Virus record (IMG/VR): IMGVR_UViG_3300045988_165922
Location: 37,893-101,892 of that record
Reading direction: 5' to 3' (one strand)
DNA from: a virus
Length of the DNA: 64,000 bases
Shown here: in pieces, positions 15,700 to 31,256 of the stretch
Layout: the number at the start of each line of letters is the position of its first letter
How positions within the stretch are numbered: the stretch's first letter is position 1
Notes under the pieces: generated by a model
The model's input: only the letters and a program-made list of their open reading frames with translations
Databases searched by the model: none
What the model was told of the DNA's origin: nothing
Made by a program: the position numbers and the translations under genes

Positions 15700-15855
15700 C
15701 TTATCTCAAACAAGAATCTATTTTAAACCACTTCCGTTTAGGTCGTCAACCTCTACTCTCGACAAAGCTCGCCCATTATCGAACTTAACCTCTTGGTACA
15801 TGCTTTTTTAAAGTATTATACTTATTATAATTATTATAAAATCAAGGAAACAGAC
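15700..15855 (+). promoter_or_regulatory. low-GC promoter region of the ATPase moron
   Basis: AT-rich (tattatacttattataattattataaaatcaagg), unlike the flanking ~60% GC DNA. Confidence 0.4.
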
Positions 15856-17120: not shown

Positions 17121-18128
17121 CTATCCCTTGTGCGTTTTCTCATACCATTCCACGAATCCCAGCATGGCTTGCTGGAATGATGGTTTGAATTCGCCGTTTA
17201 CGGGAATGTTTCGGTTGAGTGGCGTGGTCTTATAGTTTTCCGGTAAGGGTGTGGCGCACCATTCGGGTGGTATCCGGTCGGTGAATGGTTCCTCGCAATC
17301 GTCGCTGAACATGAGTCCTACCGGCTTGCCGTTGAGGAGGATTGTTGCGTGGGGGCTGATTTGTCCTTTCGCCAACCGGTATTCTCCTCTTGTCGTGTGT
17401 ATTGGATAGTGGAAGGTTTCAGGTAGTCCTCCCCGCCGGTATTCGTCGCGTAATAGTCGAATCGGATTATAGTAGCGTTCCAATGCGGGGTATGCCCATT
17501 CGCATCCGCTCCAACAGTCGCGTACCCTGTCCATTCCGTCCCAGTTTTCTTTCGGATTGGGTTGGATGCTGAGTTTGCGGTATCGGTCGGTTTGACACCA
17601 GCGGGCGGGATTGTTCAGGGCATAGTTCGGCGTGGTTTGTTCGGCTAACCGTATGAGAGTGCTGAGGGTGCATGAAGCATAATGTTGCTTGTCGTATCGT
17701 GCGACAAGCCGATACGGGTCGGCATCATCCTTGTTAAACACAGGCTTCAACACGCGTAAATGTTCCTCCGTTACGGGAATATCAAGGTCGGCTGGTAAAC
17801 CCAACACTTCCATCCAACCTCCAAGCCTGTTCGTATCCCACTTGTAATCCTTGCAGTATTGCGCTTGCAACAGCCAAACCATCCAACGGCGCACATTCCG
17901 CATCAGTACGGGATGGGACGCGAATTCGAGAGGACGCCCCAGCATGTCATGATTCACATTATCCGGCGTGGTAATACTGGTTCGATTACCGTACTCGTCC
18001 ACTGCCGTCACGACGATATTGTGTCCGGCGTCCACAGCCTTGAACATGTCGCTGATGTTGTCTTCCACGAACGTGGGCGGAATGAGACGCGACTGGACTT
18101 GACCATTAATCGGCACGGAGAGCATCAT
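17121..18128 (-). CDS. hypothetical protein, 335 aa
   Basis: ORF track; overlaps the upstream gene by ATGA. Confidence 0.55.
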   Translation of the reverse strand: MMLSVPINGQVQSRLIPPTFVEDNISDMFKAVDAGHNIVVTAVDEYGNRTSITTPDNVNHDMLGRPLEFASHPVLMRNVRRWMVWLLQAQYCKDYKWDTNRLGGWMEVLGLPADLDIPVTEEHLRVLKPVFNKDDADPYRLVARYDKQHYASCTLSTLIRLAEQTTPNYALNNPARWCQTDRYRKLSIQPNPKENWDGMDRVRDCWSGCEWAYPALERYYNPIRLLRDEYRRGGLPETFHYPIHTTRGEYRLAKGQISPHATILLNGKPVGLMFSDDCEEPFTDRIPPEWCATPLPENYKTTPLNRNIPVNGEFKPSFQQAMLGFVEWYEKTHKG

Positions 18129-18736
18129 TCACCATCCTCACTATTAGAGGCGAGTCGGGTTCGGAGTTCCCTCAACCGGCCTAACCGTTCCTCCACAGCC
18201 TGAATACGAACGTCAACCGCAGTCAACGTGTCACCATCCGGCTCAGACAACTCATACTTGCCGGACGACAGTCGTTCCAGAAAACTGGTGGGAACATCCC
18301 ATACCAATAATCGGAGTTTGTCGGGACTGAGATTCAACCCCGTATACAAGCCGGTTTTAGGCCACATGCCATCCACGAGAGCCACATTCGGCATCATGCG
18401 CGGTGGACGGTCGGGCTGATATTTTTCGACTAGGATTCGACCAGCGAACCAGATAATGTCGCTATCCTGCTTGGAGTACGCGTACAAGTAGTCGTAGGGG
18501 TTGATGGTGACTGTGACACGCTTTTCAGCGTCCACGCCCTTATGCCACCAGAAATATTTGTCTAAAGCTTCGAACACCAGCCTTTCCACACGCATATCGA
18601 ACGTCCAAGTCTTCAACTTGTCATCAAACGTTCCACCCAACGCGCGGGAGCGACGTGCGAACAACGGATTATACGGAGCCTTAACCTTCAAACGGACATC
18701 ACTGCGAGTGACCGTAATATCATCAAAACCTGCCAT
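18125..18736 (-). CDS. hypothetical protein, 203 aa
   Basis: RBS GAAAGGAAACTGTC-ATG. Confidence 0.55.
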   Translation of the reverse strand: MAGFDDITVTRSDVRLKVKAPYNPLFARRSRALGGTFDDKLKTWTFDMRVERLVFEALDKYFWWHKGVDAEKRVTVTINPYDYLYAYSKQDSDIIWFAGRILVEKYQPDRPPRMMPNVALVDGMWPKTGLYTGLNLSPDKLRLLVWDVPTSFLERLSSGKYELSEPDGDTLTAVDVRIQAVEERLGRLRELRTRLASNSEDGE

Positions 18737-19005: not shown

Positions 19006-20235
19006 TCACGGGTGAAAAGCCAGCTTCCGCATTTCACAATGCCTCCGATACCACGCTTTCTCCCGAGCGCACAGTCCACGACGGTGAGTTAGACCCGACA
19101 GTGTGCTCTCATGGCTCGTCCAAGAATCCTGAACTGTCCGCAATCCCACATGCACGCCATCATATGAGCGGATAAGGTTACGCGCATGCCGTCGGCTTGC
19201 ACGCAACGCCTTATGGTGCATGCGGATAAGAATACTGCCGTCATCCTGTACGCTGTATACGCGTTTCAGGAATGTGAGTTGACCGGTGCGACAGTCCACT
19301 ATGCGGGTCTTGCGCTTGTTCAACCGCAATCCCAATTGATTGACATGCCGCTCGTAACCGGCCAGCACACGTTCGGCCTGTTCACGATTCTTGCAGAAAC
19401 AGTAGGCATCATCCATATACCGTCCGTAGAATCCTTGCGACATGCACCAGTGGTCAACCTTGTTCAAATACCAGATAGCCATGGTTTGGCTTGTCTGATT
19501 GCCTAAACCCAAGTGAGGTTCGTCCAATACGAAGATTCTCAATACGGTTAGAATCCGTTCCACATCCTGCTTCTCCCGTCCGGTGCGGGCGATGCTCCGG
19601 TACAGGGTGGAAATCATATCGAACGCTCGTTGGGAGCTGATACTTCCGAAATAGTTGGCACAGTCGAAGATGACAGCATACGGATGCTCCCATTTGCCCA
19701 AAGCCCGCTTATAGTGTAGTTCGAACCGTTTTCGGGCGAACGATGTTCCACGTTTCGGTAGGCTTGCCGCATTATCGTATATCAGTTGGCTTTCCACGAT
19801 GGGGACGAGACTGTTGTCGCATAAGGCGCGTTGCACCACCCGGTCTCGGAAGGATACCGCGCTGATGTGGCGGAGTTTGCCTCGTTCGGAAATGTCGAAT
19901 CGGATTGGCGCTCTCTTCTTGTATGTGCCGTCCTCTAATTCTTGGGCGAGTTTCCAACAGTTGACGGCACGCCTATTGTCGAAGTTCAACACTGTGTTTT
20001 TCCATGTGACGCCGCGTTTGCATTTTCTTGCGGCTTGGTAGAGCGCGTCGAATCCGAATGTTTGTTGGAAGTCGATGTAACGGTGGAGCTTCCTGTACTT
20101 ATCATCCGAGCGTTGTTGCAGTCTGCGTTGGCGTCTTCTACGTCTTTGACTCGCATTCACGATTTTAATGCTTCCTTCACTAGGGAAAGAGAAAAGAATG
20201 GTTGAGGGCAGGTCGTCGGCAACAACCCAAGACAT
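19006..20235 (-). CDS. reverse transcriptase, DGR type
   Basis: RT motifs SFRDRVVQRAL, FDCANYFGSI, YMDDAYCF (YxDD); motif 4 reads LGNQTSQ (the DGR-type I/LGxxxSQ in place of QGxxxSP); adjacent TR/VR pair; N-terminal start uncertain. Confidence 0.85.
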   Translation of the reverse strand: MSWVVADDLPSTILFSFPSEGSIKIVNASQRRRRRQRRLQQRSDDKYRKLHRYIDFQQTFGFDALYQAARKCKRGVTWKNTVLNFDNRRAVNCWKLAQELEDGTYKKRAPIRFDISERGKLRHISAVSFRDRVVQRALCDNSLVPIVESQLIYDNAASLPKRGTSFARKRFELHYKRALGKWEHPYAVIFDCANYFGSISSQRAFDMISTLYRSIARTGREKQDVERILTVLRIFVLDEPHLGLGNQTSQTMAIWYLNKVDHWCMSQGFYGRYMDDAYCFCKNREQAERVLAGYERHVNQLGLRLNKRKTRIVDCRTGQLTFLKRVYSVQDDGSILIRMHHKALRASRRHARNLIRSYDGVHVGLRTVQDSWTSHESTLSGLTHRRGLCAREKAWYRRHCEMRKLAFHP

Positions 20236-20429
20236 GCAATGATGTTGGACGCCCAGCTTAAGGGGCGAGTATCCGTCGTTTCCGACAGTCTTAATATCTC
20301 CCTCAACCTATTTCACACGCAACCCATTTTTCGAGGGGCCGCGCATTCGACCATATCCCCTTCCCCTTCGGGAGGCTTTCACCCATTGGGCTACTGGCCT
20401 ATCTGATGTTAGTTTTTGGTAAGAGGAAT

Positions 20430-20582
20430 CGGGGACAACGGAGTAGCGATTGTTGGCATTGTTGTTGTAGCTGGGGTCGCCGTTCGAGTTCACTTGGAGG
20501 AAATTGTTGTTGTTGTTCGGGTTGGGCGAACGCTCCCACCAATTGTTGTTGTTAGCACCAAGAGGAGTGGAACCGGAAACGG
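20430..20582 (-). repeat. DGR template repeat (TR), ~153 bp
   Basis: identical to the VR at 21228..21380 except at ~20 positions, 19 of which are TR adenines on the coding strand (AAC-rich). Confidence 0.8.
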
Positions 20583-20625: not shown

Positions 20626-21141
20626 TTAGGCTTGCGCCCGAGTATCCATTATAGTGTTCGTTTTCGACTCGGCGTTTTTAGCTTTCTTCAACTGGTCTCG
20701 CTCATACTTGACGGCTCCGGTGAACACGCCCATCGCCTTGTAGAGGGTTCCCGCATAGTTCACGAATTTCTTCTCCTTGACGACGGGATTGTATCTGGGG
20801 TCGCCTTCCGGATATTTCCTGTAGGCTTCCAAGTCTTTTTCCCGTGGAGGAAACTCCATCCAATCGTCCACAAGACCGGAGAGTGAGTTCAGCATGCCTT
20901 GGGCCTTGCACAACAGTTGCAGTTTCATCTCATGCTCTTCTACAGTGCTTGCATAAATGATGTCGGCACTGTAGGCGGAGGAGTACATTTCGTAGGCGAT
21001 ATGCATGACATGCACGGTTTCAATGCAGTTACGGCTTTTAGGCCATTTGCGGAACAGATTTCTGGTAGCCAAGAGCACGATTCTGGCCTGATTCGCATAT
21101 TCGCTTTTGGCTTTTGTACGTTTGCTTGCGGGAACCGTCAT
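20626..21141 (-). CDS. Avd-like DGR accessory protein, 171 aa
   Basis: small basic protein between target gene and TR, where avd normally sits; RBS AAGGAG. Confidence 0.5.
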   Translation of the reverse strand: MTVPASKRTKAKSEYANQARIVLLATRNLFRKWPKSRNCIETVHVMHIAYEMYSSAYSADIIYASTVEEHEMKLQLLCKAQGMLNSLSGLVDDWMEFPPREKDLEAYRKYPEGDPRYNPVVKEKKFVNYAGTLYKAMGVFTGAVKYERDQLKKAKNAESKTNTIMDTRAQA

Positions 21142-21213
21142 AGGACTCCTTTTGTGTGAGATTTGAGTTTGGAGGGGTGGTGGGGATGAACCCCACCACC
21201 CAAGGATTGGGGA

Positions 21214-22146
21214 TTAGAAGGAGAAAGCGGGGACAACGGAGCAGCGATAGTCGGCACTGTCGTAGTAGCTGGGGTCGCCGTACGAGGTCACTCGGAGGAA
21301 ATAACTGTTGTAGTCCGGGTCGGGCGAACGCTCCCACCAATAGCTGTAGTAAGCACCAAGAGGAGCGGAACCGGAAACGGTCTTGTAGATGCCGGAGAGA
21401 ATGCTATTACCCGACCAGTTATTTGTCACCTTACCGTGGAAATACTCGTATTGGCTTCCCTCCTGATTCAACGCTTGGAAACCACCAGAGGTCTTCCAAC
21501 CATCGTATAAGGTTGGTACGAGTTCACGGTAGGAGACGAGCCATACTTTGTCTGCCGTGGCTGACGCGCTTGAACCGACTGTGCTTCCGTAGGCCATGTT
21601 GTTGGTTTGTTTCAGCACGGTTGTGACGTTGTTTTGGAAGTCGGTTGGGAATTGGTTCCAGATTTCACCATTGTTCATCTGATTGCGGAGAAGACTGTCA
21701 CGCCAGCCGCCATTATTGGTGTGACTATTGTTCATGGCATACGCTTTCGGTAACGCGTTCCAAGCCATGAACGTCAATCCTGCTTTTCGTCCACTTCCGT
21801 CGGCTTTGTCGTCGTGGAGGATGCCGATGAGTCGGAATGGGAGGTTCGAGCCGTCTGATAGGGTGAGCGTGCCTTTGACCCCGTCGGTCAGGTTCTTTTC
21901 CATTGCGGCATAGTATGTGCTTCCTTTGCCTTTCTCGCTTAAATCGTCGGCAATCTGTTTCAATCCCGCCGCGTTATAGCCCGCGTAGCAAACCTTGTCC
22001 ACGCCAGTATTGCATTTGGCTGGTTCGGCGGCTATTGCACTACCGGTGAGGAAGCCGCCGCAGACCGCGCTCATGATGGCGAGGGTGGCGAGGAGCCGCC
22101 GAACCATGTGACGGCTCCCGTGTGATTGTGTGGCGTGTTCGCCCAT
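21214..22146 (-). CDS. DGR target protein: secreted, with a C-terminal variable repeat (C-type-lectin-fold style)
   Basis: signal peptide MVRRLLATLAIMSAVCGG...; VR covers the last ~50 codons; start MGEHAT with RBS AAAGGA, 12 nt after the adhesin gene stop. Confidence 0.75.
   Translation of the reverse strand: MGEHATQSHGSRHMVRRLLATLAIMSAVCGGFLTGSAIAAEPAKCNTGVDKVCYAGYNAAGLKQIADDLSEKGKGSTYYAAMEKNLTDGVKGTLTLSDGSNLPFRLIGILHDDKADGSGRKAGLTFMAWNALPKAYAMNNSHTNNGGWRDSLLRNQMNNGEIWNQFPTDFQNNVTTVLKQTNNMAYGSTVGSSASATADKVWLVSYRELVPTLYDGWKTSGGFQALNQEGSQYEYFHGKVTNNWSGNSILSGIYKTVSGSAPLGAYYSYWWERSPDPDYNSYFLRVTSYGDPSYYDSADYRCSVVPAFSF
21228..21380 (-). repeat. DGR variable repeat (VR), ending 12 nt before the target stop codon
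   Basis: aligns with the TR; the 14-bp GC-rich identical block cggggacaacggag at its 3' end looks IMH-like. Confidence 0.8.
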
Positions 22147-22157
22147 TCTTGTTCCTT

Positions 22158-25100
22158 TCACTGTTCTTCCTTCTTTCGTAGGAGGATGATTGCCGCGACG
22201 AGTCCGCTGATGCTGACGAGCATGAGGAGCGGCAACAGCAATCCCATGCCCGTGTGCGGCATGGTCGCCAACCATGTTTCAGGCAGGACACCCGCATCCA
22301 CATGCTCCTTGGTTGGAGCATCTTGGGTGAGGGTGATGGTCAGCTTGTTGGCTTCATCCGTGTAAGCATCCGAATCAGTGGAGCTTCCATCCGCCGCAGG
22401 AGTCTTGTCTCCCACATCCGGCGTGGTGAAGTCCCGGTGGTTCACTTTGGTGAATTGGATACGGTATTTGTTGCCGTTCGCGTCCAGACGTTCGAAAATG
22501 TACTTGCCATCCTTGTCGGTCTTGGTGGTTGCCAACTGTTTGCCGTTCTCGTCAGTCAGAATGACCGTCTGACCGGCGAAATGCGTGTTCTCACCTTCAT
22601 CTTGAATGCCGTTCTTGTTGGTATCCTCCCAATACAGGCCGCTGATGGAACCGAGTTTCTTCGCGGTGGTGGTTGGTGTGATGATGGTGCCGACTTGGTC
22701 GCAGGAGTCCTCATCGGACGTGCTGAACCAGTGTTGGCGTCCTTCCTCCGTATAGTCCGTGTCGGTGCGGCATGTCGGATTGCCGGTCACATCATTCGTG
22801 TTGGCATCCAGTTTCGTAGCGTCCGGAGTGTTCGGCTTGTTTTTGCCGCTTGCGTGTGGCGTGCCCGAATATGGCGTGTGTTCGGAGTCGAACCATGCTT
22901 GGTTGAGAATGGTCTTCGTATTCTTCTTAACCCACTCGTCAATGTACGTCTGGTCTTTGCCCGTCATGTCAGCGGTCTCACGGTCAACTGTGCCGGTGAA
23001 ATGGTAGATGACATAGCCGCCCGGCTCAATCGAATACGGCAGATTGTACGTGCGGGTAGTCAACCCATTCTCAGTGGTTTCGCTCGATGGTTCGACAGGT
23101 ACGGCGGTCGGGTCGGACGAGACCGCCATACCCTTCAAACCGATCGAACGCGCGCCACCCGTCTTACCGTCACCATACGGGTCGAAGCCCGCAATCATGA
23201 CCTGCTTGCCAAGAATGAGCACGTCACGGTCACCGCCCGCCACGTCGGAGGCGATGATGCCCGTATCGACTGGCGTGCCGATGATGTCCGTGTTGTTACC
23301 GGTGGAGTCGTCCGTCCAATACATGCCGTTGCCGGTCTTGCCGTTCGCCAATTGTCCGTCACCATTCCAGCCTGAAGCCCACAAGTGTTGGTTCTTGTCG
23401 ATGGCGTACAAGGTCTGATAGCCGCCGCTGATGAGTGTGATGTCCTTCAGACTGGACACGTTGGGCGAATAGCCGTCGCGGTTCAGGGTGGCTACCGGTT
23501 GGACGGTGCCCGAATTGGTCAACGCGTATACTTGACCGAATGCGGCGGCCACCTGCATATAGCCGCTTCCTTTTGGGGTTAATGCGGTCGAAGCGCCCGC
23601 ATACAGGCTTCCGCCGTTCTTGGTCAATGCGATGAACGAGTCCATGCTTGCGCTGACTTGCGTGGATGTGACGGAGCTAATCTGGGTCAGACTCGTGTAA
23701 GTCTTGTTGCCAATGTTTCCCGTGGCCCACAGGGTTCCGTCACTGGCGATGGCGACGGTGAACTGGTTGCCGCATGCCACGTCCGTGAACGTCTTATCCG
23801 AAGCGACTTCCGTCCATTCGAAACGATTGTCCGTATCACCCGTACCCAATTGGCCTCTACTATTCCAACCGGTCGTGTACAGGTGTCCGTCCGTGCTGAT
23901 GGCGGCGGAATGTTTGCCACCGGCGGCGACTTTCAGCCAACTACCGTTGATGATGGTCGGCTTGTTCACGTTCACCGGAGTACTCGTGTTCGTGGAGTCA
24001 GGCTTGAAACCCAATTGACCATACTGGTTATTACCCCACGCATACAACAAGCCCTCATTCGTCAACACAAACTTATGGTCGCCACTCGTCGCAACCTGCT
24101 TCGCACCACCGGATTCAATACTCACAGTACCCGCCGTAGCCGTCACATCATGCACATCAGCACTCATACGGTCAGACACGACACTGGAAGTATCAAAACG
24201 AGACGTGCCGGAAGACTCAGTGGAAGTATCAGGAACAACCTGAACACCAGACTTCCAAACATGACCGTCGGAAACCAAAATCGGCGTGCTCTGGTCAGTT
24301 CCCGTGCCATCATGGTTATATCCCCATGTCCACAGGCGTCCGCCTGAATCCAAAGCCAGTCTTCCCTCTATTTGCGTAATTGTGACATCAGATTTAACCT
24401 TAATAGGAACATTTACGCAGGTATTCTCATACCCAATTCCTAATGAGCCGTGCTCATTGTTTCCCCATGCCCACCGGTGGCCGTCCGAATCTAAAGCAAA
24501 CGAGGATGAATCCCTCGCCGCAATCTGCGTGAACATGTCAGTAGAATAAACTTTAATCAGTAGGGGTTTTAAGCTGTTTTTATTAGAAGATACTCCAAGT
24601 GAACCGTAGTTATTCCACCCCCATGCCCATAGGTGACCTTCCGAATCCAAGGCGAGTGAATGCGCGCCGCCTGCGCTGACTTGGGTGAAGGTGGTGTCCG
24701 GTTTGACCTCGATAGGAGTGTTCCGGGCGGTGGTTGTTCCGTCTCCCAACTGGCCGGAACCGTTGCCTCCCCATGCCCATAGGTGACCTTCCGAATCCAA
24801 GGCGAGTGAATGCGCGCCGCCTGCGCTGACTTGGGTGAAGGTGGTGTCCGGTTTGACCTCGATAGGAGTGTTCCGGGCGGTGGTTGTTCCGTCTCCCAAC
24901 TGGCCGGAACCGTTGCCTCCCCATGCCCATAGGTGACCTTCCGAATCCAAGGCGAGTGAATGCGCGCCGCCTGCGGCAAATGTCTTCAGTGGTGGTACAC
25001 TCGGTGCCTTCTCGGTGCTCTTGCCCTTATTCTGCACCTTCACATCCCAGTTGATGACGCATTTTGTGTCCGTGCAATTGGTGCCGGTGACGGTTTTGTC

Positions 25101-28100
25101 TACGGTGGCTTTCAGGTCTGGTTTCGCGTAACCGTAGTCCACGTGGGTCTGGTTGATGCCGATACCTAGGTGGATGTCGTCGGACGTGTCTGTCGCGTTG
25201 GACTTGATTTTGTTAGACCAGCTGCGCGTGTTCGTCACGTCTTCCAATTTGCCGTAGTAGGTTTTGACTTGGGTTTGCACGCCGTCGCCCGTACTGGTGC
25301 CCGTATTGCGTTTCACCGAAGTCTTGTACGTGCCGGAGTGGAGCAGGTCGAACTCGTAATACCCGTCCTTGTCGGTTTTCACTGTCTTGACGGACTGCCA
25401 AGCACCATTCGCATCCTGCTTGCTGAGGATGACTTCCACGCCTTCGATACGTTCCTCACCATCTCCGATGAGCGTGTTCTCATCCTTATCCCACCAGACG
25501 GTACCGGAAATGCTACCGACGACGACGTTCGCCACGTCAGGCCATGGCTGGTTGCCTGCTGGCTTGCCTGCCGTGTCGGAATAATAGTTGCGGCCCAACC
25601 ATAGCGTGTACTTGTCGTCTTTCACATTGTCGGACGGGTTGAGCGTGATGGTGCCGTTCACTGCGGAATAGGATAGTTTTTCGTCGGATGCGACGACTGT
25701 GCTGGTCAGTCGGATGGCGGTGATGTTCTTCTTGTCCGAATCCGTCAACTTGTCCCATGTCTTCCACTCGTAGTCAGCCGGATTATCCGACTTCTTTCCG
25801 GTGGTGGTTGAATAGTAGACGGTCGTACTGGTCGAATTGTCCATATTGACCGTGATGGGCTGGGTCAGTTCGTAGGAGCCATGATAGTTGCTGTATCCAC
25901 GCTCATATTCGACCAGCTTGTCCTGCACGTACTTCTCATCACCATTCGCAGGAAGCAGTAGCATGCTATCCATGGTGCCGGTGTGACCGCCGCCCTTGCC
26001 GTACACGTTGAACTCCCAAGTAAGCGGGTCACCGATTTCAGCCTTCGTGGTCTTCACACGCATGATGCCACTGTTGGTTTCCGCATTGGAGACGGGGAAT
26101 GGGACGCTGGGCGTATTGCTTTTGATGGTTTGGGCTTGCAATGCGCCGTTCTCGTCAACGTCCACGCTCATATTCGCACTGGCGGTCACAGTCCCGGTGG
26201 CGAGATTGGATACGATGCCACTGAAATGCAGGTCAGGCAAAGTGGCCGACCCCATACGGTCTACTTCCGGCGTGACTTTGCCAGAACGTGGCGTGAACAC
26301 GAGATTATTCCCGTCCACTTTCATCTGCCAGAACGAATCATCACAGGTCGGATTGTACAAGCCTTTCGGTTTCGGCACCGTGATGGTCGGCGTCATGCTT
26401 GTATTGGACAGGAGAATGGTGCGCAACTGTTCCGTGACCGTATAATCCACTCGCATGCCGGGAGTCAAATCGACTGCGCTTCCGGACGGGTGATTGGAAC
26501 TGTTGTTCGCATACACTTGATTGCCTTCACCATCGTAGGCTTTCAGACTGATGTCGATACTGGTGGTCGGGTCTACCGGCTTGGCAATCCACACCCAATT
26601 GGTGACGCTCGCCTTATCGTCTTCGGTAAGCCATGCGGTCAGCGTATCCAAAGCTTCCACATTGCCTTTGGACACGTCGGCTATGGCGAGCGTGTTGAAC
26701 GTGACCTGAACGTTCGGCGCACCCTTTCCTAAAGTCAACGTGTCGGGGTTGAACGTCACCCGAATCTTCTTGACGTTCGGAGCGTCCGTGTCGGATGGTT
26801 CCCCGTCATGCCAATTGTCTTTGCTATCAGCCCATTGAACTTTGTAGTCGGAAACCGGAGCACCGTTCTGGGTGACTTCCAAGCTTCCATCCCACCGCAT
26901 GCGCGTATTATCCCACTCATCCTGCATGGTCGGCGTAGTGTTTTTAAGCTTGTCCGCAGTAACGTTCGCCGCATACATTTCCAAAATGGTTTTGACTTGC
27001 GTTCCACGGGACACGGTGTCGCCGGAACCGTCGGAATAGTAATGGTAGATGTCGGCTTTGCCTTCGGCGGCGTCGAACGTCAGATTCTCCTTGTCGAACA
27101 TGGTCTTGGACGCAGTGTTAGGACGTTGCAGTCCTTTGCCGAACAGTGGAATCTTGCCAGCTGGAGTCGGCTTGAGCCGTTGGATGATGGCTCGTGACCA
27201 GTCATTGTTCGCGTACGGGTAGCCGACGCGGGCACCCGTATCCTTGTTGTAGGTGCTCTTGTCCCGTCCAATGTTCCAGCCGGGTTCGCCGCCCTTGCCC
27301 ATGTTCAACAGTGCGTTGCCGTTATCGTCTTTGACGCTGAACACGGTTTCGTCGGGAACAAGGTGGACATCGTAATATTTGACGTCTCCTTCTTTCATGT
27401 TTTTGAGCGCGTCGGTTCCGGCGGGAATCCTGTAGCTGATTGTCGCCGCCGTACCGTTTTTGCCACTGGATACGGTCAAATACTGTTCTTTATCACTGTT
27501 ACGGGTAATCCTCTGACCGCCTACAGTCCACACGGTGCCCTGCGGGAAGTCGGAAATATCCACTTTGGTAGTCCAATCGATGCTGGTGGACGCGCCCTTC
27601 GTGGACGAATAACCCGGATAGGTCAACGCGTCGGTACGAATAGTGAAATCACCGGTCGCATCGGTGTTCTGACTCCAATAAGTACGATGCTCATACGAGT
27701 ATTGGCCTTTCACCGGATTGCCGCCATTGTCAATGACCAAGTCAGCCGCCGGAGCGGATACTACAGTCAGCTCATCCGTACGATACGTGGTTGACGTTCC
27801 ACCTTCGCGGGCGACGACGATTTTCGGAATCTGACCCGGCTTGACCAAGCCTCCCGTGTCTTTTGCTTTCAGATAGAAGGTTTGGGTCATGGTTTCCACG
27901 CCACCGGCTGGAACCGTGTAGGAGCAGGAGCCGTCACTGTTTTTCTTCGCGGTGACGAGTTGTCCCGGCTGGCAGAAGCCACCACCGTCAGCAGTCTGCA
28001 AATACGGCGCGTCATCCAAGTCGAACTTCACGTTGATGGTACGCTTGCCCGCCGCGTTGAAGTTCAACGTGAGAGAATATTCGACCGTATCACCGGATGC

Positions 28101-28358
28101 GACCACGCCATCGGTAGGGGAATCATCGCCCGTGGCGAACCCGTTCTTCGAATTCACGAACGTTTGCGAACTCGTGCCATGCCCCGTACCGTCGGCTTTC
28201 TTAACGATTTTCGCAGTAGCATATGCGGGTTTCAACTCGTCCGCATGCGCTTTCGGAGAGGCTACCGGATTGGTCATGCATATCAGGCCGGATGACAGTG
28301 TGGCGATTGCGGCCAATAATGCTACCGGATGTGCCACATGCTTTTTGAGAATACCCAT
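22158..28358 (-). CDS. giant sortase-anchored surface protein / putative pilus tip adhesin with RCC1 beta-propeller repeats and CnaB-like domains, 2066 aa
   Basis: signal peptide; HSLALDSEGHLWAWGGNGSGQLGDGTT RCC1 repeats; CnaB-like GKYIFERL / GYYEFDLL; C-terminal MPHTG followed by TM and RKKEEQ sorting signal. Confidence 0.8.
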   Translation of the reverse strand: MGILKKHVAHPVALLAAIATLSSGLICMTNPVASPKAHADELKPAYATAKIVKKADGTGHGTSSQTFVNSKNGFATGDDSPTDGVVASGDTVEYSLTLNFNAAGKRTINVKFDLDDAPYLQTADGGGFCQPGQLVTAKKNSDGSCSYTVPAGGVETMTQTFYLKAKDTGGLVKPGQIPKIVVAREGGTSTTYRTDELTVVSAPAADLVIDNGGNPVKGQYSYEHRTYWSQNTDATGDFTIRTDALTYPGYSSTKGASTSIDWTTKVDISDFPQGTVWTVGGQRITRNSDKEQYLTVSSGKNGTAATISYRIPAGTDALKNMKEGDVKYYDVHLVPDETVFSVKDDNGNALLNMGKGGEPGWNIGRDKSTYNKDTGARVGYPYANNDWSRAIIQRLKPTPAGKIPLFGKGLQRPNTASKTMFDKENLTFDAAEGKADIYHYYSDGSGDTVSRGTQVKTILEMYAANVTADKLKNTTPTMQDEWDNTRMRWDGSLEVTQNGAPVSDYKVQWADSKDNWHDGEPSDTDAPNVKKIRVTFNPDTLTLGKGAPNVQVTFNTLAIADVSKGNVEALDTLTAWLTEDDKASVTNWVWIAKPVDPTTSIDISLKAYDGEGNQVYANNSSNHPSGSAVDLTPGMRVDYTVTEQLRTILLSNTSMTPTITVPKPKGLYNPTCDDSFWQMKVDGNNLVFTPRSGKVTPEVDRMGSATLPDLHFSGIVSNLATGTVTASANMSVDVDENGALQAQTIKSNTPSVPFPVSNAETNSGIMRVKTTKAEIGDPLTWEFNVYGKGGGHTGTMDSMLLLPANGDEKYVQDKLVEYERGYSNYHGSYELTQPITVNMDNSTSTTVYYSTTTGKKSDNPADYEWKTWDKLTDSDKKNITAIRLTSTVVASDEKLSYSAVNGTITLNPSDNVKDDKYTLWLGRNYYSDTAGKPAGNQPWPDVANVVVGSISGTVWWDKDENTLIGDGEERIEGVEVILSKQDANGAWQSVKTVKTDKDGYYEFDLLHSGTYKTSVKRNTGTSTGDGVQTQVKTYYGKLEDVTNTRSWSNKIKSNATDTSDDIHLGIGINQTHVDYGYAKPDLKATVDKTVTGTNCTDTKCVINWDVKVQNKGKSTEKAPSVPPLKTFAAGGAHSLALDSEGHLWAWGGNGSGQLGDGTTTARNTPIEVKPDTTFTQVSAGGAHSLALDSEGHLWAWGGNGSGQLGDGTTTARNTPIEVKPDTTFTQVSAGGAHSLALDSEGHLWAWGWNNYGSLGVSSNKNSLKPLLIKVYSTDMFTQIAARDSSSFALDSDGHRWAWGNNEHGSLGIGYENTCVNVPIKVKSDVTITQIEGRLALDSGGRLWTWGYNHDGTGTDQSTPILVSDGHVWKSGVQVVPDTSTESSGTSRFDTSSVVSDRMSADVHDVTATAGTVSIESGGAKQVATSGDHKFVLTNEGLLYAWGNNQYGQLGFKPDSTNTSTPVNVNKPTIINGSWLKVAAGGKHSAAISTDGHLYTTGWNSRGQLGTGDTDNRFEWTEVASDKTFTDVACGNQFTVAIASDGTLWATGNIGNKTYTSLTQISSVTSTQVSASMDSFIALTKNGGSLYAGASTALTPKGSGYMQVAAAFGQVYALTNSGTVQPVATLNRDGYSPNVSSLKDITLISGGYQTLYAIDKNQHLWASGWNGDGQLANGKTGNGMYWTDDSTGNNTDIIGTPVDTGIIASDVAGGDRDVLILGKQVMIAGFDPYGDGKTGGARSIGLKGMAVSSDPTAVPVEPSSETTENGLTTRTYNLPYSIEPGGYVIYHFTGTVDRETADMTGKDQTYIDEWVKKNTKTILNQAWFDSEHTPYSGTPHASGKNKPNTPDATKLDANTNDVTGNPTCRTDTDYTEEGRQHWFSTSDEDSCDQVGTIITPTTTAKKLGSISGLYWEDTNKNGIQDEGENTHFAGQTVILTDENGKQLATTKTDKDGKYIFERLDANGNKYRIQFTKVNHRDFTTPDVGDKTPAADGSSTDSDAYTDEANKLTITLTQDAPTKEHVDAGVLPETWLATMPHTGMGLLLPLLMLVSISGLVAAIILLRKKEEQ
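24600..24975. repeat. ~2.5 tandem, near-identical 150-bp DNA repeats, each encoding one 50-aa RCC1 blade
   Basis: copies start at about 24621, 24771 and 24921 and are essentially identical at the DNA level. Confidence 0.8.
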
Positions 28359-29263
28359 TAGTGTTCCTTCTTTGCGTGGTTTTTTCTACGGATGATGAGA
28401 ATGGTGATGATGATTACCGCAAGCCAGAAGCCGCCGACGTACAGTATGAGCCATTGGTTCGTGTGGTCTTTCGGCGCGTTTTCGGGTCTGGGTGCGGGGT
28501 GCGGCATGCTGGTGCGCGTGCCGGTCACTAGGAGTCGCTTGTTGTTGATGCCGTATGGCGTGCAGGTTAGGAGTGTGGCGAGGTCTTTTCCGGCGACGAT
28601 TTTCAGTTTGGTGAAATCGGATGGGTCTACCACATCAATGCTTGTGACCTTGTAGGCGAGCGTATGTCCGGCGGTTATCAGATAGAAGACGTCACTTTTT
28701 TTGGCTTCACTGCCGAAGCCTCGTAGCTTGTCGAACATGAGCTGGTCTGCCAAACCCGTGTGCGCGGATATGACAGTATGCGTGTTCTTGCCGCCGACGG
28801 GGAGACTGGAACCATATAAGTGTCCGGCTCCAGCGGCCAACACGTTTTGCGACGTGCCATGCCGGATGGGCAGGTTGATGCCCAAGCGTGGATATTTGAT
28901 GGTGGCCATGACCCCATCCTTGGGGGTGGATAGTTGCTTCCGATACGTGTTGTCCGTTTCGGACTTGTTGACGCCTGTCCAAGGGTCTTCCGCCTCACCA
29001 AGAATGGGCTGGCCTTCCTCGTATAGGCGTTGATTGTAGGCTTGCGCGTCCGCATACTCTTGGGCGATTCGTTTCACGTCAGTGTTTTCCACGGCTTGCG
29101 CGTGGGAGTCGGTCAACCGGTTGGATTGGCTGCTGTTCGAAATCATGAGAATGAATGGGATGGTTCCGGACAGGGCGGATAGGATTAGGCAGAGAAGTCC
29201 CGCTATGGCTCGATTTCCCAAGCCTTTCGGTTTCGCCGTATGTTTTCCCAAAACCCCTCCCAT
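28358..29263 (-). CDS. class C (pilus-specific) sortase
   Basis: TLLTCTPYG catalytic motif, conserved His and Arg, C-terminal TM; stop overlaps the adhesin ATG (TAATG). Confidence 0.8.
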   Translation of the reverse strand: MGGVLGKHTAKPKGLGNRAIAGLLCLILSALSGTIPFILMISNSSQSNRLTDSHAQAVENTDVKRIAQEYADAQAYNQRLYEEGQPILGEAEDPWTGVNKSETDNTYRKQLSTPKDGVMATIKYPRLGINLPIRHGTSQNVLAAGAGHLYGSSLPVGGKNTHTVISAHTGLADQLMFDKLRGFGSEAKKSDVFYLITAGHTLAYKVTSIDVVDPSDFTKLKIVAGKDLATLLTCTPYGINNKRLLVTGTRTSMPHPAPRPENAPKDHTNQWLILYVGGFWLAVIIITILIIRRKNHAKKEH

Positions 29264-29398
29264 GCGGTTATAAAGAATCTAAAAGGTGTCGTGTCGATAT
29301 TTGGGTTCCCGACACGACAAGCGGAACATTTCATGCTTTTCCAACCGTCAAACGGTCAGAAAAGTTTTCTCATACGGCAGTATTCCAATCTTCCAATC

Positions 29399-31093
29399 TC
29401 ACGCCTTGCGACGAAGCAGCAGGGCGGAAGCGCCAGCCAACAGGACGGTCATCACGCCGAAGATGGACAGCCAGACCGCACCGGTCTTCGGCATGTCAGC
29501 GATGTTGCGGGCGTTGATGACGGTCACACCCATCTTGTCAACGTTCTCGGAAGCCAGATTGTTGGCGTCCTTATCGAACTGGCTGAGCATGTAGGAGCCG
29601 TTCGACTGGTTCACCTTGATGGTCAGGGTGAACTGCGGCAGGATGGAGCCGTTGAACGGACTCTTTGTCTCCTTGACCGTGTACTTGCCGTCGAGGCCGG
29701 TCAGCGTGAGCACGCCATTGCTAGTAGCGACGCTGGTGACGGTGTCGGTGGTGCCGGTGCTCTCGGTCAGGTCGGCCTTGCGGTAGGTCAGGCCGTCGGA
29801 GGACTTGACGAACCTGACCGGGGTGGTGGTCTGGTCGCCCTCGTACACCTTGAACTCGGCTCCGGCGAGCGGAGCGTTGTTCGTGTCGTGCTTGGTGAGG
29901 GTGAACTTGCCGACGTACACCTTGTCGGTCTGGCCCGGGGTGGTCTCATGGTCGGTGACGGTGTTCGGATTATGCGAGTATTCGACCTCGTTGGTGTTGG
30001 CGTCGGCGGTTCCGGAGACGGCGTTCTTGTTCACGTACATGCCGTACTTGACGTCAACGGCGGCATCGACCGGGAACTTGGCTTTCATCGCCACAATGTC
30101 GGATGTGGTGGTGGAGTCACCGGTGGTCGGAGCGAAGATGATGTGGAACTTGCCATCCTCAGTAGTGACCTTGTAATCGGTGTCGCAGATGAGGGTCTTA
30201 CCGTCCACGGTCACGACCATGTTGTCCTTGGCCGCGTCATAAGTCAGGCCCTTGGAATACGTATCGTTGATGGCGTAATAGTACTTGTCGTAGCCAGTCC
30301 AGTTCGGCACTTTGCTGGTCATTTCGAAGCTGACCTTCTTGCCGATAGCGGTTTCGGCGGTCGCGCCACTGTTTTCGACGGTGCCGTTTTCGGCGGCGGT
30401 AATCTTCTTCGTGACGGTGGTGCCGTGTACCTTATAGTCCACGGTGCCCAGCGTGTAGGTCTTGGCGCCGTTCTTCAACGTGGTCTTGCCATCGATGCCG
30501 GTGCCGTTGAACATGACGATGGACGCCTGACCGGTCTTGGTGGTGTCCACGACCGCGTACACGCCCGGACGGACAGAAGCGGTCATATGCTTGGCGTCGG
30601 TGCCCTTGGCGAACGCGGTGCCCTTGTCGCCGATGACAGCGGCCTCGTTCTTCAACTGGTCGATGAAGTCACGAAGCTTGCCAGCCCACGGACTGTTCTC
30701 GGAATCAAGGAGATTCTGCACGACCCACACCATCGGATTGGACGCATTATAGTCGTATCCGGCAGTCTGGTCTTTCTTGGACTTAGTGTCAATACTGGCT
30801 TTAGTCAATGCGTCAGCAATAGCAGAAGCCTTGCCCGCGTCAATCAGGTCAAAGCCGGTAATATTAGTACCATCAGTCTGCGCATACGAATAGTAGGCGA
30901 GCGGCACAGCCTTCAACGTGCGATTGCTAATATCACCATTAGCAGCGACGGTCAACGTCTGACGAGCAGCCGCATCAAACTTGGATGCGTCAACACGAGT
31001 ATCAGCCGCCATGGCGGAGCCGACTCCAGCCAAACCCATGGCACCGGCCACAAGCGTGGCGACCGTTGCCTTCAACAGGTTTTTGGTTTTCAC
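29399..31093 (-). CDS. sortase-dependent pilin backbone subunit, 564 aa
   Basis: signal peptide; E-box-like YTVKETKSPFNGS; C-terminal MPKTG + TM + RRKA; GTG start with RBS AAGGAAAG. Confidence 0.7.
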   Translation of the reverse strand: MKTKNLLKATVATLVAGAMGLAGVGSAMAADTRVDASKFDAAARQTLTVAANGDISNRTLKAVPLAYYSYAQTDGTNITGFDLIDAGKASAIADALTKASIDTKSKKDQTAGYDYNASNPMVWVVQNLLDSENSPWAGKLRDFIDQLKNEAAVIGDKGTAFAKGTDAKHMTASVRPGVYAVVDTTKTGQASIVMFNGTGIDGKTTLKNGAKTYTLGTVDYKVHGTTVTKKITAAENGTVENSGATAETAIGKKVSFEMTSKVPNWTGYDKYYYAINDTYSKGLTYDAAKDNMVVTVDGKTLICDTDYKVTTEDGKFHIIFAPTTGDSTTTSDIVAMKAKFPVDAAVDVKYGMYVNKNAVSGTADANTNEVEYSHNPNTVTDHETTPGQTDKVYVGKFTLTKHDTNNAPLAGAEFKVYEGDQTTTPVRFVKSSDGLTYRKADLTESTGTTDTVTSVATSNGVLTLTGLDGKYTVKETKSPFNGSILPQFTLTIKVNQSNGSYMLSQFDKDANNLASENVDKMGVTVINARNIADMPKTGAVWLSIFGVMTVLLAGASALLLRRKA

Positions 31094-31134
31094 CTTTGTT
31101 TTCCTTTCCTTACTAGACCCGGCGCACGTTCATT

Positions 31135-31160
31135 CATCGAACGGGGTCAATATCGGATTA
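31135..31160 (-). promoter_or_regulatory. weak partial motif copy upstream of the pilus operon (cattcctaatatacc)
   Basis: matches only the TATA-half of the consensus. Confidence 0.2.
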
Positions 31161-31228
31161 CATTCCTAATATACCGCACGCACCCTCATTAAAAACCTTG
31201 AAAGAATGCTTTCAGCCCTTAAAAATAA

Positions 31229-31256
31229 GGAGGGGCATGGCTTCCCATACCCCTCC
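31229..31256 (-). terminator. rho-independent terminator (ggaggggcatggcttcccatacccctcc) with a U-run on the minus strand
   Basis: 7-bp GC stem, then TTATTTTT on the minus strand, downstream of the flotillin gene stop. Confidence 0.65.

What the first reader, a model, noticed from the sequence alone, without database searches (positions are those of the whole stretch)
21214..31093. The DGR target gene is the last cistron of a sortase-dependent pilus operon
The order on the minus strand is pilin (MPKTG) -> class C sortase (TAATG overlap) -> 2066-aa adhesin -> DGR target, whose ATG with RBS lies 12 nt after the adhesin stop. Avd, TR and RT follow on the same strand. The target has a signal peptide (AIMSAVCGG, possibly lipidated) but no cell-wall sorting motif. 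So a hypervariable ligand-binding protein is co-expressed with a pilus rather than with a phage tail fibre. This suggests diversified receptor-binding linked to pilus-mediated adhesion, or recipient-cell or phage-receptor interactions during conjugation.
Basis: partly seen in the sequence, partly recalled or inferred. Interest (0 to 1): 0.75.

Follow-up and report, generated by a model that had tools for sequence, protein, structure and literature searches.

The report
DGR-diversified lectin inside a Gram-positive pilus operon
On a large Bifidobacterium plasmid, a gene for a secreted sugar- or protein-binding module that a retroelement keeps rewriting is built into the end of an operon for a sortase-assembled surface pilus, so a gut commensal seems able to reprogram what this adhesion apparatus binds.

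Summary
On the minus strand lie a backbone pilin (MPKTG), a class C sortase (TAATG overlap), a 2066-aa RCC1-propeller/SdrD_B adhesin (MPHTG) and a 310-aa DUF6273 protein whose ATG follows the adhesin stop by 11 nt. A complete DGR follows: an Avd recognisable by fold only, a 152-nt TR and the RT.

Of 20 TR/VR differences, 19 fall on TR adenines. Across nine near-identical metagenome copies, 40 of 152 VR sites vary, against 5 of 766 in the rest of the gene, so the DGR is active in nature.

The new result is comparative. The same pilin-sortase-adhesin-DUF6273 unit, with the last two genes overlapping (-14 or -4 nt), recurs in diverged Bifidobacterium chromosomes, in a contig assigned to Senegalimassilia and on other plasmid-like contigs, at 46-62% target identity. 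There the DGR is absent or decayed to Avd/RT fragments. The variable protein therefore belongs to the operon and is not a stray phage cassette.

It has a C-type-lectin-like fold and a conserved AxA signal-peptidase site. It has no sorting signal, and the supposed lipobox cysteine is not conserved. Co-transcription, location on the pilus and the ligand remain inferred.

The closest precedent is the DGR-diversified type V pilus tips of Bacteroides. I found no report for sortase-dependent pili.

The parts
31229..31256 (-). Intrinsic terminator closing the upstream Band_7/flotillin gene. It marks the upstream boundary of the pilus transcription unit.
   Evidence: 12-bp stem followed by TTATTTTTAA. 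Folding energy -25.5 kcal/mol, z -3.3.
31094..31228 (-). Intergenic leader upstream of the pilin gene, and the presumed promoter region. It contains a TATATT -10-like hexamer and an AAGGAAAGGA ribosome-binding site before the GTG start.
   Evidence: Sequence read directly. The promoter is inferred and did not pass the consensus scan.
29399..31093 (-). Backbone (major) pilin, 564 aa, with signal peptide, a conserved V-(D/E)-Y-K pilin-motif-like lysine, the E-box-like YxVxETKSPF, and the MPKTG sorting signal.
   Evidence: Pfam GramPos_pilinBB 1.6e-18 and SpaA 1.9e-09. NCBIfam TIGR04226 passes its cut-off; the SpaH/EbpB major pilin model scores 83.9 bits, below its cut-off of 95. The motifs are invariant in five diverged homologues.
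29264..29398 (-). Structured pilin-sortase intergenic region; a possible attenuator that sets the pilin:sortase ratio.
   Evidence: Minimum free energy -40.2 kcal/mol, z -3.6, 0 of 200 shuffles as stable. The function is inferred.
28358..29263 (-). Class C (pilus-polymerising) sortase, 301 aa. Its stop overlaps the adhesin start (TAATG).
   Evidence: NF033745 class_C_sortase, 222.6 bits against a cut-off of 160. Pfam Sortase 1.2e-20. Overlap read directly.
22158..28358 (-). Giant sortase-substrate adhesin and presumed pilus tip subunit, 2066 aa. It has a signal peptide, about 950 aa with no detectable homology, RCC1-like beta-propellers, SdrD_B/prealbumin-like domains, and an MPHTG sorting signal with a TM helix and a basic tail.
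   Evidence: Pfam WD40_RLD 2e-104, RCC1 2.9e-67, SdrD_B 2.8e-25. MPxTG is conserved in all homologues. The N-terminal 950 aa have no PDB sequence match.
24619..24975 (.). Perfect 150-bp tandem repeat (2.4 copies) inside the adhesin gene. Each unit encodes one RCC1 blade. It probably contributes to the length variation seen among related copies.
   Evidence: TRF: 100% matches, score 714. Adhesin lengths in related contigs range from 1728 to 2171 aa.
22147..22157 (-). 11-nt adhesin/target junction that carries the ribosome-binding site (AAGGAAC).
   Evidence: Identical in nine near-identical copies: 0 of 14 sites vary. Homologues have a -14 or -4 nt overlap instead. No promoter-like site lies in the junction; the nearest terminator-like match (22264-22244, inside the adhesin gene) is weak.
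21214..22146 (-). DGR variable protein, 310 aa. It has a Sec signal peptide with an AIA|AEP cleavage site and a DUF6273 / C-type-lectin-like globular domain. It has no cell-wall sorting signal.
21229..21380 (-). Variable region (VR): the last ~50 codons of the target gene.
   Evidence: 19 of 20 differences from TR fall on TR adenines. 40 of 152 sites vary among nine copies whose other sequence is about 99% identical. Entropy is 2.65 bits at the mutated codons against 0.39 elsewhere.
21215..21241 (-). IMH-like 3' end of VR. A 14-nt G/C-rich stretch is identical to TR; it is followed by positions that differ from TR at non-adenines, so the TR carries an IMH*-like version.
   Evidence: Alignments. 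Invariant among copies.
21175..21201 (-). GC-rich 11-bp hairpin just downstream of VR with no T-run. It sits where the DGR target-site hairpin/cruciform is expected.
   Evidence: -25.1 kcal/mol, z -5.9, 0 of 200 shuffles as stable. Invariant among copies. Assigning it to the DGR hairpin rests on my knowledge of the BPP-1 system.
20626..21141 (-). Avd accessory protein, 171 aa. It is a divergent family with no Pfam or NCBIfam model.
20431..20582 (-). Template repeat (TR), rich in AAC codons.
   Evidence: 1 of 152 sites varies among copies.
20236..20430 (-). TR-RT spacer, presumably part of the DGR RNA.
   Evidence: 1 of 195 sites varies among copies. The function is inferred and was not tested.
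19006..20235 (-). DGR reverse transcriptase, 409 aa, containing LGNQTSQ and YMDD.
   Evidence: Pfam RVT_1 7.4e-13. The best phage matches are annotated reverse transcriptases of gut phages (Roseburia phage Shimadzu 33%, Faecalibacterium phages), and five Bordetella phage records are among the hits. Motifs read.

Best explanation
The region is one functional module carried by a ~190-220 kb Bifidobacterium megaplasmid distantly related to pMP7017. It is a four-gene sortase-dependent pilus operon: backbone pilin, class C sortase, giant RCC1-propeller adhesin, and a secreted C-type-lectin-like DUF6273 protein. A complete DGR (Avd, TR, RT) follows immediately and rewrites the last ~50 codons of the fourth gene by adenine-specific mutagenic retrohoming.

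Shown:
- The gene order and domain identities.
- The unusual MPxTG sorting signal shared by the pilin and the adhesin.
- The tight adhesin/target start-stop coupling, conserved across lineages diverged to about 50% identity.
- All DGR parts are present.
- VR diversification is ongoing in natural populations.
- The target persists in the operon where the DGR is lost.

Inferred:
- The four genes, and probably avd-TR-RT as well, are transcribed from a promoter upstream of the pilin gene.
- The variable protein is exported by Sec and cleaved at AIA|AEP.
- Lacking a sorting signal, it is not polymerised by the sortase. It acts as a non-covalent, exchangeable ligand-binding partner of the adhesin at the pilus or cell surface.
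- The DGR therefore lets the plasmid's host retune adhesion specificity, towards host glycans or mucus, or towards other microbes.
For: Anatomy.

DGR:
- 19 of 20 TR/VR differences fall on adenines.
- 40 of 152 VR sites vary among nine copies, against 5 of 766 in the rest of the target. Nothing varies in the junction (0 of 14) or in the IMH-plus-hairpin stretch (0 of 87).
- Entropy is 2.65 bits at the mutated VR codons against 0.39 elsewhere.
- The Avd fold matches 8ub7_B and 4dwl_A.
- The RT matches annotated reverse transcriptases of gut phages and Bordetella phage records.

Operon membership: the same pilin-sortase-adhesin-DUF6273 unit occurs in
- B. moukalabense (L009);
- Bifidobacteriaceae MCC02031-type chromosomes (L010-12);
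- L013/14;
- a contig assigned to Senegalimassilia (L018);
- a 310-kb contig (L027).
An adhesin+target pair alone sits on another 190-kb element (L029). The gene overlap is -14 or -4 nt in these loci. DGR remnants (Avd and/or RT fragments) lie downstream in several of them.

A DGR-deleted sibling megaplasmid in a B. pseudocatenulatum isolate keeps the operon and the target.

MPxTG is conserved in both sortase substrates. The pilin-motif lysine and the E-box are invariant.

Precedent: Bacteroides DGR targets sit at the ends of type V pilus operons on ICEs.
Against: - There is no transcript, protein-localisation or binding evidence.
- The strong hairpin after VR (-25.1 kcal/mol) could end the pilus transcript, which would leave avd-TR-RT needing a promoter I could not find.
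- The target has no sorting signal and no recognisable docking domain, so physical association with the pilus is conjecture.
- In L015/16 and L006 the target survives deletions that remove the sortase and most of the adhesin. It may therefore work without them, or these may simply be recent decay products.
- All pilus-linked homologues form one clade. Synteny conservation is partly shared ancestry and not repeated independent association.
- More remote DUF6273 genes in Coriobacteriia show no pilus genes nearby.
Confidence: 0.62

Rival explanations
1. The variable protein is co-regulated with the pilus but is not part of it. It is a freely secreted, or signal-anchor-tethered, diversified lectin that works on its own, for example by coating the cell, binding mucin glycans or agglutinating competitors. 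The operon link serves only to synchronise expression.
For: It has no sorting signal or pilin domain. The target gene stays intact in loci where the sortase and adhesin are truncated (L015/16) or deleted (L006). Its 22-residue hydrophobic N-terminal segment could act as a membrane anchor if it is not cleaved.
Against: The target start is coupled to the adhesin stop in every intact locus, and the adhesin+target pair is the most conserved core (L029). That suggests a stoichiometric partnership and not mere co-regulation. An AxA cleavage motif is conserved.
Confidence: 0.25
2. The pilus plus variable lectin is a conjugation accessory of the megaplasmid. It would be a mating-pair stabiliser whose specificity for recipient surfaces is diversified to broaden or retarget plasmid transfer.
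For: The module sits on a relative of the conjugative megaplasmid pMP7017. In L029 the adhesin+target pair lies among FtsK/SpoIIIE, CHAP and NlpC/P60 genes, which are typical of Gram-positive transfer regions. L015/16 carry a TrwC relaxase nearby. From my own knowledge, sortase-anchored adhesins aid mating in other Gram-positive plasmids.
Against: The same operon sits in chromosomes beside housekeeping genes (acyltransferase, gpsA, ddl) with no transfer genes in view. pMP7017-type megaplasmids in PLSDB lack the target altogether. In the Bacteroides analogue the diversified tip adhesin was dispensable for ICE transfer.
Confidence: 0.1
3. The juxtaposition is incidental. A phage-derived DGR cassette (target-Avd-TR-RT) inserted next to an unrelated pilus operon, and the target has nothing to do with the pilus.
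For: DUF6273 targets and the nearest RT relatives are mostly from gut phages. The Avd family also occurs next to DUF6273 targets on unrelated short contigs.
Against: The adhesin-target junction is conserved, with overlapping reading frames, in lineages diverged to 46-62% identity. It persists after the RT and Avd have decayed or been deleted. A passenger gene would not be expected to survive in frame-coupled form after losing its retroelement. No phage structural genes were seen among the window proteins scanned.
Confidence: 0.03

Closest known systems
DGR-diversified type V pilus tip adhesins of Bacteroides (BfrT, BthT, BunT) on ICEs; Macadangdang et al., bioRxiv 10.1101/2024.11.15.621889, listed as Science 2025 in the reference list seen
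   Same: The variable-protein gene lies at the downstream end of a pilus operon. It is followed by Avd-TR-RT, is carried on a conjugative element of a human gut commensal, has a C-type-lectin-type VR, and diversifies in human metagenomes.
   Different: - The pilus is of a different, unrelated kind: sortase-polymerised in a Gram-positive cell, against lipoprotein strand-exchange type V.
- There the variable protein is itself the tip pilin, with a lipobox and a pilin domain.
- Here it is a separate 310-aa secreted protein with no sorting signal, placed after a 2066-aa sortase-anchored adhesin.
Canonical DGRs with C-type-lectin-fold targets (Bordetella phage BPP-1 Mtd, Treponema TvpA) and DUF6273 targets of gut phages ('tentaclins' and Mtd-like proteins, PMC10743442; 10.1101/2024.10.15.618418)
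   Same: Target-Avd-TR-RT order, adenine-specific TR/VR differences at AAC codons, VR at the C-terminus of a CLec-like domain, and an IMH followed by a GC hairpin. DUF6273 is an established DGR scaffold.
   Different: The setting is a pilus operon on a plasmid or chromosome, not a phage tail module. The Avd is a divergent 171-aa family that Pfam and NCBIfam do not detect.
SpaA-type sortase-dependent pilus operons of Actinomycetota (Corynebacterium Spa, Actinomyces Fim, Bifidobacterium pil clusters)
   Same: Backbone pilin with a pilin-motif lysine, an E-box and a sorting signal; a dedicated class C sortase; and a large ancillary or tip subunit with its own sorting signal.
   Different: - The sorting signal is MPxTG instead of LPxTG.
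- The adhesin is built from RCC1 propellers.
- A fourth, non-anchored cistron is present and subject to DGR mutagenesis.
Bifidobacterium conjugative megaplasmid pMP7017 family (KM406416; PMC10832533, PMC8313286)
   Same: Similar contig size (184-219 kb). The ParB-like protein matches at 47-54% identity in these plasmids, next to dnaB in pMP7017 as in the window. pMP7017 also has ParA/CobQ-like, ~870-aa and ~1250-aa genes of similar size and adjacency to window ORFs.
   Different: There is no DNA-level match. pMP7017-type plasmids in PLSDB lack the DUF6273 target, and the pMP7017 transcriptome paper mentions neither a sortase nor a DGR.

Membership tests
Diversity-generating retroelement (DGR) | TR/VR repeat pair whose differences are confined to TR adenines | tested here: met
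   152-nt pair; 19 of 20 differences on TR adenines, all 19 in codon positions 1 or 2.
Diversity-generating retroelement (DGR) | DGR-type reverse transcriptase next to the TR | tested here: met
   RVT_1 domain. LGNQTSQ and YMDD motifs read; that these are DGR signatures rests on my own knowledge. Best phage hits are annotated reverse transcriptases of gut phages, and Bordetella phage records are among the hits.
Diversity-generating retroelement (DGR) | Avd accessory protein (four-helix bundle) between the target and the TR | tested here: met
Diversity-generating retroelement (DGR) | VR at the C-terminus of a C-type-lectin-fold variable protein | tested here: met
Diversity-generating retroelement (DGR) | IMH at the VR 3' end plus a downstream GC hairpin | tested here: met
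   A 14-nt identical G/C stretch, then non-adenine differences. 11-bp hairpin, -25.1 kcal/mol, z -5.9. The functional role was not tested.
Diversity-generating retroelement (DGR) | Ongoing mutagenic retrohoming | tested here: met
   40 of 152 VR sites vary among nine copies with identical RT, against 0.7% of sites in the rest of the gene. This is population evidence, not an experiment.
Sortase-dependent (SpaA-type) pilus operon | Dedicated class C sortase | tested here: met
   NF033745, 222.6 bits against a cut-off of 160.
Sortase-dependent (SpaA-type) pilus operon | Backbone pilin with a Cna-B/isopeptide domain, pilin-motif lysine, E-box and sorting signal | tested here: met
   GramPos_pilinBB, SpaA and TIGR04226. 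V-(D/E)-YK and YxVxETKSPF are invariant, and MPKTG with a TM helix and basic tail is present. The SpaH/EbpB subfamily model scores below its cut-off (83.9 against 95).
Sortase-dependent (SpaA-type) pilus operon | Ancillary or tip subunit carrying its own sorting signal | tested here: met
   The 2066-aa adhesin carries MPHTG, a TM helix and a basic tail. MPxTG is conserved in all homologues.
Sortase-dependent (SpaA-type) pilus operon | Assembly of a covalent pilus fibre on the cell surface | not testable with these tools
   Needs electron microscopy or immunoblot ladders.
DGR-diversified pilus tip adhesin (Bacteroides type V kind) | The variable protein is itself a pilin subunit, with a pilin domain and an assembly or anchoring signal | tested here: not met
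   The target has only the DUF6273 domain, no sorting signal and no pilin domain.
DGR-diversified pilus tip adhesin (Bacteroides type V kind) | The variable gene sits at the distal end of a pilus operon on a mobile element | tested here: met
   compare.
   The Cys of AVC|GG is replaced by G, A, S or Y in homologues, and position -1 is Val. The conserved feature is AxA|(A/D)EP. No dedicated signal-peptide predictor was available.

The most novel reading that the evidence does not exclude
The sortase-anchored RCC1-propeller adhesin and the secreted DGR-variable lectin form a two-component pilus tip. The covalently anchored giant subunit is a constant docking platform, and the small non-covalent subunit is the exchangeable, continuously rewritten ligand-binding head. 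Because avd-TR-RT lie on the same transcript, diversification is switched on together with pilus expression. This would be a way of making a hypervariable Gram-positive pilus without touching any sortase substrate. It would have arisen convergently with the Bacteroides type V system, and it spreads on a conjugative megaplasmid.
Probability: 0.3. Interest if true: 0.82.

Novelty: new variant of a known kind. Interest (0 to 1): 0.68.

Why it matters
DGRs are most abundant in the human gut, yet outside phage tail fibres and Bacteroides type V pili their cellular targets are mostly unexplained.

This locus extends DGR-driven adhesin diversification to sortase-dependent pili of Actinomycetota, in Bifidobacterium, a genus whose colonisation factors are of direct health interest.

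It also comes with natural controls. There are sibling megaplasmids with and without the DGR, chromosomal copies with decayed DGRs, and deletion variants lacking the pilus genes. The related megaplasmid pMP7017 has been studied by conjugation and transcriptomics in B. breve, so a genetic route exists.

Three questions become directly testable:
- whether accelerated evolution of one small lectin changes host or microbe binding;
- how a protein without a sorting signal joins a sortase pilus;
- why DGRs are repeatedly lost while their targets are kept.

Tried and rejected
- **Lipoprotein reading of AVC|GG.** Rejected. The Cys is not conserved and an AxA site is.
- **DNA matches to known plasmids or phages.** None for the locus or for 24 kb of backbone. 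Only protein-level links to pMP7017-type megaplasmids were found.
- **pMP7017 transcriptome paper.** I looked for transcript evidence there; it mentions no sortase, pilus operon or DGR on that plasmid.
- **The 'Hodor' megaplasmid preprint.** It was the only paper listed for DGR plus sortase, and it concerns unrelated Bacillota plasmids whose DGRs sit in prophages.
- **Adhesin N-terminal 950 aa and pilin against PDB sequences.** No hits.
- **tRNA and Rfam scans of the window.** Nothing found.
- **Function of the DUF6273 domain in the T. ramosa IgA protease, the best structural match.** The paper assigns it no binding role, so I drew no inference from it.
- **Genome-collection scan with the target alignment.** It returned only six loci. 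Five of them are remote Coriobacteriia DUF6273 genes with no pilus or RT genes nearby. The pilus link is therefore specific to one clade and is not a general property of DUF6273.
- **Promoter scan.** It gave no more matches than shuffled sequence, so I assign no promoter with confidence.


Full report
**1. What is in the sequence**

On the minus strand a strong intrinsic terminator (31256-31229, 12-bp stem plus a T-run, -25.5 kcal/mol) closes a Band_7/flotillin gene. After a 135-nt leader the genes run as follows.

- Pilin, 564 aa (29399-31093), with GramPos_pilinBB and SpaA domains and the sorting signal MPKTG.
- A structured 135-nt spacer (-40.2 kcal/mol, z -3.6).
- Sortase, 301 aa (28358-29263). 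It scores 222.6 bits on the NCBIfam class C sortase model against a cut-off of 160.
- Adhesin, 2066 aa (22158-28358). Its ATG overlaps the sortase TAA (TAATG). It carries RCC1-like propellers, SdrD_B domains and an MPHTG sorting signal.
- After 11 nt that include AAGGAAC, a 310-aa DUF6273 protein (21214-22146).

These points rest.

**2. The DGR is complete and active**

The last 152 nt of the fourth gene (VR, 21229-21380) are repeated at 20431-20582 (TR). Nineteen of the 20 differences fall on TR adenines, which is 19 of the 42 adenines, and all 19 lie in codon positions 1 or 2.

The VR ends in a 14-nt G/C-rich stretch identical to TR. It is followed by non-adenine differences, which is IMH/IMH*-like. 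Next comes an 11-bp GC hairpin (21175-21201; -25.1 kcal/mol, z -5.9) with no T-run.

The 409-aa ORF at 19006-20235 is a reverse transcriptase with LGNQTSQ and YMDD motifs. Its best phage matches are annotated reverse transcriptases of gut phages, and Bordetella phage records are among the hits.

Activity in nature is shown by comparing copies. The exact RT protein is encoded on contigs in 40 blocks of the assembly collection. Among nine copies that are otherwise about 99% identical:

| Region | Variable sites |
|---|---|
| VR | 40 of 152 |
| Rest of the target gene | 5 of 766 |
| Adhesin/target junction | 0 of 14 |
| IMH, hairpin and intergenic stretch | 0 of 87 |
| avd | 2 of 516 |
| TR | 1 of 152 |

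Across 64 homologue-cluster representatives, entropy at the mutated codons is 2.65 bits against 0.39 elsewhere.

**3. The host element**

The related contigs I fetched are 184-219 kb long. One comes from a B. pseudocatenulatum isolate (GCA_020526265.1).

There is no DNA-level match in PLSDB or the phage collection. The ParB-like protein next to dnaB has 47-54% identity to pMP7017 of B. breve and to 183-198 kb B. longum megaplasmids. pMP7017 also carries ParA/CobQ-like, ~870-aa and ~1250-aa genes of similar size and adjacency to window ORFs.

The window therefore comes from a second, diverged lineage of bifidobacterial megaplasmids. The pMP7017 lineage in PLSDB lacks the DUF6273 gene.

**4. The decisive comparative result**

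The answer is the same DUF6273 gene.

| Locus | Context | Genes present | Target identity | DGR state |
|---|---|---|---|---|
| L009 | B. moukalabense chromosome | pilin-sortase-adhesin-DUF6273 | 62% | no RT or Avd detected |
| L010-12 | Bifidobacteriaceae MCC02031-type chromosome | same four genes | 56% | Avd and RT fragments |
| L013/14 | metagenome contigs | same four genes | 53% | Avd fragments |
| L027 | 310-kb contig | same four genes | 60% | Avd homologue (43%), no RT |
| L018 | contig assigned to Senegalimassilia | same four genes | 48% | none in the 1.8 kb available |
| L029 | another ~190-kb plasmid-like contig, among FtsK/CHAP/NlpC-P60 genes | adhesin+target only | 69% | Avd remnant |
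| L015/16 | TrwC-bearing element from chimpanzee gut | pilin, truncated sortase, adhesin C-terminal fragment, intact target | 46% | none detected |

- In L009 and L010-12 the unit lies beside housekeeping genes (acyltransferase, gpsA, ddl).
- In these loci the target ATG lies 14 nt inside the adhesin gene or overlaps its stop (ATGA), and the ribosome-binding site is inside the adhesin coding sequence.
- The unusual MPxTG sorting signal is conserved in both the pilin and the adhesin everywhere.
- The pilin's V-(D/E)-YK lysine motif and its YxVxETKSPF E-box are invariant.
- Within the window's own plasmid family, the B. pseudocatenulatum isolate carries a deletion. It starts after codon 52 of avd and removes the TR and RT, while the operon and the target stay intact.
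- A further variant (L006) has lost the pilin, the sortase and most of the adhesin, leaving a Band_7::adhesin fusion, but keeps the target and the DGR.

The simplest history is an ancestral pilus operon with an attached DGR. The retroelement was then lost repeatedly while its target was retained as an operon member.

**5. The variable protein**

The N-terminus has a basic stretch, a 22-residue hydrophobic segment and a conserved AxA|(A/D)EP motif. I therefore infer Sec export and signal peptidase I cleavage, not lipidation.

There is no sorting signal. The C-terminus is the VR and IMH itself (…VVPAFSF).

**6. How it most likely works**

Shown: the anatomy, the class of each part, the conserved gene coupling, the natural VR diversification, and the retention of the target without the DGR.

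Inferred:
- Transcription starts upstream of the pilin gene and runs through all four genes. No promoter-like site lies at the adhesin/target junction, and the only nearby terminator-like match is a weak one inside the adhesin gene.
- It probably continues into avd-TR-RT. Only about 35 nt separate the hairpin from the avd start, which is too little for a promoter.
- The sortase polymerises the MPKTG pilin and attaches the MPHTG adhesin.
- The lectin is secreted and acts as a non-covalent, reprogrammable binding subunit with the adhesin.
- The DGR retunes its specificity.

I put about 0.85 on operon membership and about 0.45 on physical association with the pilus, for 0.62 overall.

Rivals, in order of weight:
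- A co-regulated but free or membrane-tethered lectin (0.25).
- A conjugation mating-pair factor (0.10). It is suggested by the plasmid and transfer-gene contexts. The chromosomal copies weaken it, as does the Bacteroides finding that the diversified tip was dispensable for ICE transfer.
- Chance juxtaposition of a phage cassette (0.03). The conserved frame-coupled junction contradicts it.

**7. Comparison with what is known**

As a DGR it meets every defining feature tested. As a SpaA-type pilus operon it meets all the sequence criteria; fibre assembly cannot be tested here.

The nearest functional precedent is the Bacteroides system, in which DGR targets sit at the ends of type V pilus operons on ICEs. 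This locus works like that system but is not a member of it. The pilus machinery is unrelated, and the variable protein is not a pilin.

Full-text searches found no paper linking DGRs with sortase-dependent pili. One search combined DGR with sortase and another combined 'diversity-generating' with LPXTG. Bifidobacterial DGRs are reported only in prophages or in passing. The pMP7017 transcriptome paper does not mention a sortase or a DGR. The library covers only open-access papers and bioRxiv preprints, so a report in a subscription journal cannot be excluded.

**8. Verdict**

This is a new variant of a known kind: a DGR-diversified, pilus-linked binding protein in a Gram-positive sortase-dependent pilus operon. 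Natural DGR-plus and DGR-minus siblings make it experimentally attractive. Interest 0.68.

Noticed in passing
window 24619-24975 (inside the adhesin gene): A perfect 150-bp tandem repeat (2.4 copies, 100% identity) encodes identical RCC1 blades. Adhesin length ranges from 1728 to 2171 aa among related copies, which suggests ongoing repeat expansion and contraction as a second variation mechanism in the same operon.
   Followed up: partly
L030 / L031 (B. pseudocatenulatum GCA_020526265.1 contig JAHXEL010000008.1; 193,669-bp metagenome contig), locus ~10965-11250: A sibling megaplasmid has a deletion that starts after codon 52 of avd. It removes the rest of avd, the TR, the RT and several kb downstream, but keeps the pilus operon and an intact target. 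This is a natural DGR-minus control in a cultured isolate.
   Followed up: yes
L006 (Logan ERR14039036), locus 6251-7996: A variant in which the pilin, the sortase and most of the adhesin are deleted, leaving a 581-aa Band_7::adhesin C-terminus fusion. The target and the complete DGR remain. Its VR also has a 3-nt deletion relative to TR. An assembly artefact is not excluded.
   Followed up: partly
L010-L012 ~11090-11461; L013/14 ~11066-11403; L027 ~11045-11314; L029 ~10973-11067: Fragments of Avd, and in L010-12 also of the RT (aa 139-209, 63% identity), lie downstream of the non-diversified chromosomal or plasmid DUF6273 genes. DGR loss therefore appears recurrent while the target is retained.
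   Followed up: yes
window 29399-29430 and 22158-22290; homologues in L009-L029: Both sortase substrates use MPxTG instead of the canonical LPxTG: (E/D)MPKTG in the pilin and (S/T)MP(M/H/T)TG in the adhesin. The methionine is conserved in every pilin and adhesin homologue inspected (one pilin reads MPKSG). This suggests a dedicated specificity of this class C sortase.
   Followed up: partly
window 20626-21141: The Avd here belongs to a ~165-180-aa family with a beta-hairpin insertion and a long C-terminal helix. No Pfam or NCBIfam model detects it, so annotation pipelines that rely on those models would miss it.
   Followed up: yes
window 29264-29398: The pilin-sortase intergenic region folds into an unusually stable structure (-40.2 kcal/mol, z -3.6), including a stem followed by a T-rich stretch. 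It may be an attenuator that limits sortase and adhesin expression relative to the pilin.
   Followed up: no
TR position 60 (window ~20523) in L001, L003, L004, L007, L008: A TR polymorphism (A to G) is present in five of the nine copies. The matching VR position is G in all five, as expected if VR is copied from TR.
   Followed up: partly
window 19006-20235 (RT 5' end): The annotated RT start may be too far upstream. A related RT in L025 begins at MNASQRARRR, which aligns with residue ~26 (VNASQRRRRR, a GTG codon) of the window ORF. That would lengthen the non-coding TR-RT spacer.
   Followed up: no
window 32000-56000 and 58459-59484: The backbone resembles pMP7017 only at the protein level (ParB-like 587-aa protein next to DnaB; ParA/CobQ-like, 886-aa and 1343-aa ORFs of similar size to pMP7017 genes). 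A GmrSD_C-domain protein (58459-59484) and an AAA_16/STAND-like ATPase (15793-17013, + strand) sit nearby. No tRNA genes or Rfam families were found in the window.
   Followed up: partly
window 17121-18736 (ORFs of 203 and 335 aa directly downstream of the RT): Two overlapping ORFs of unknown function follow the RT on the same strand in every DGR-bearing copy. They are removed together with the DGR in the L030 deletion. They have no Pfam hit, and one has a weak match to a PHROG of unknown function. Whether they belong to the DGR module is unknown.
   Followed up: no
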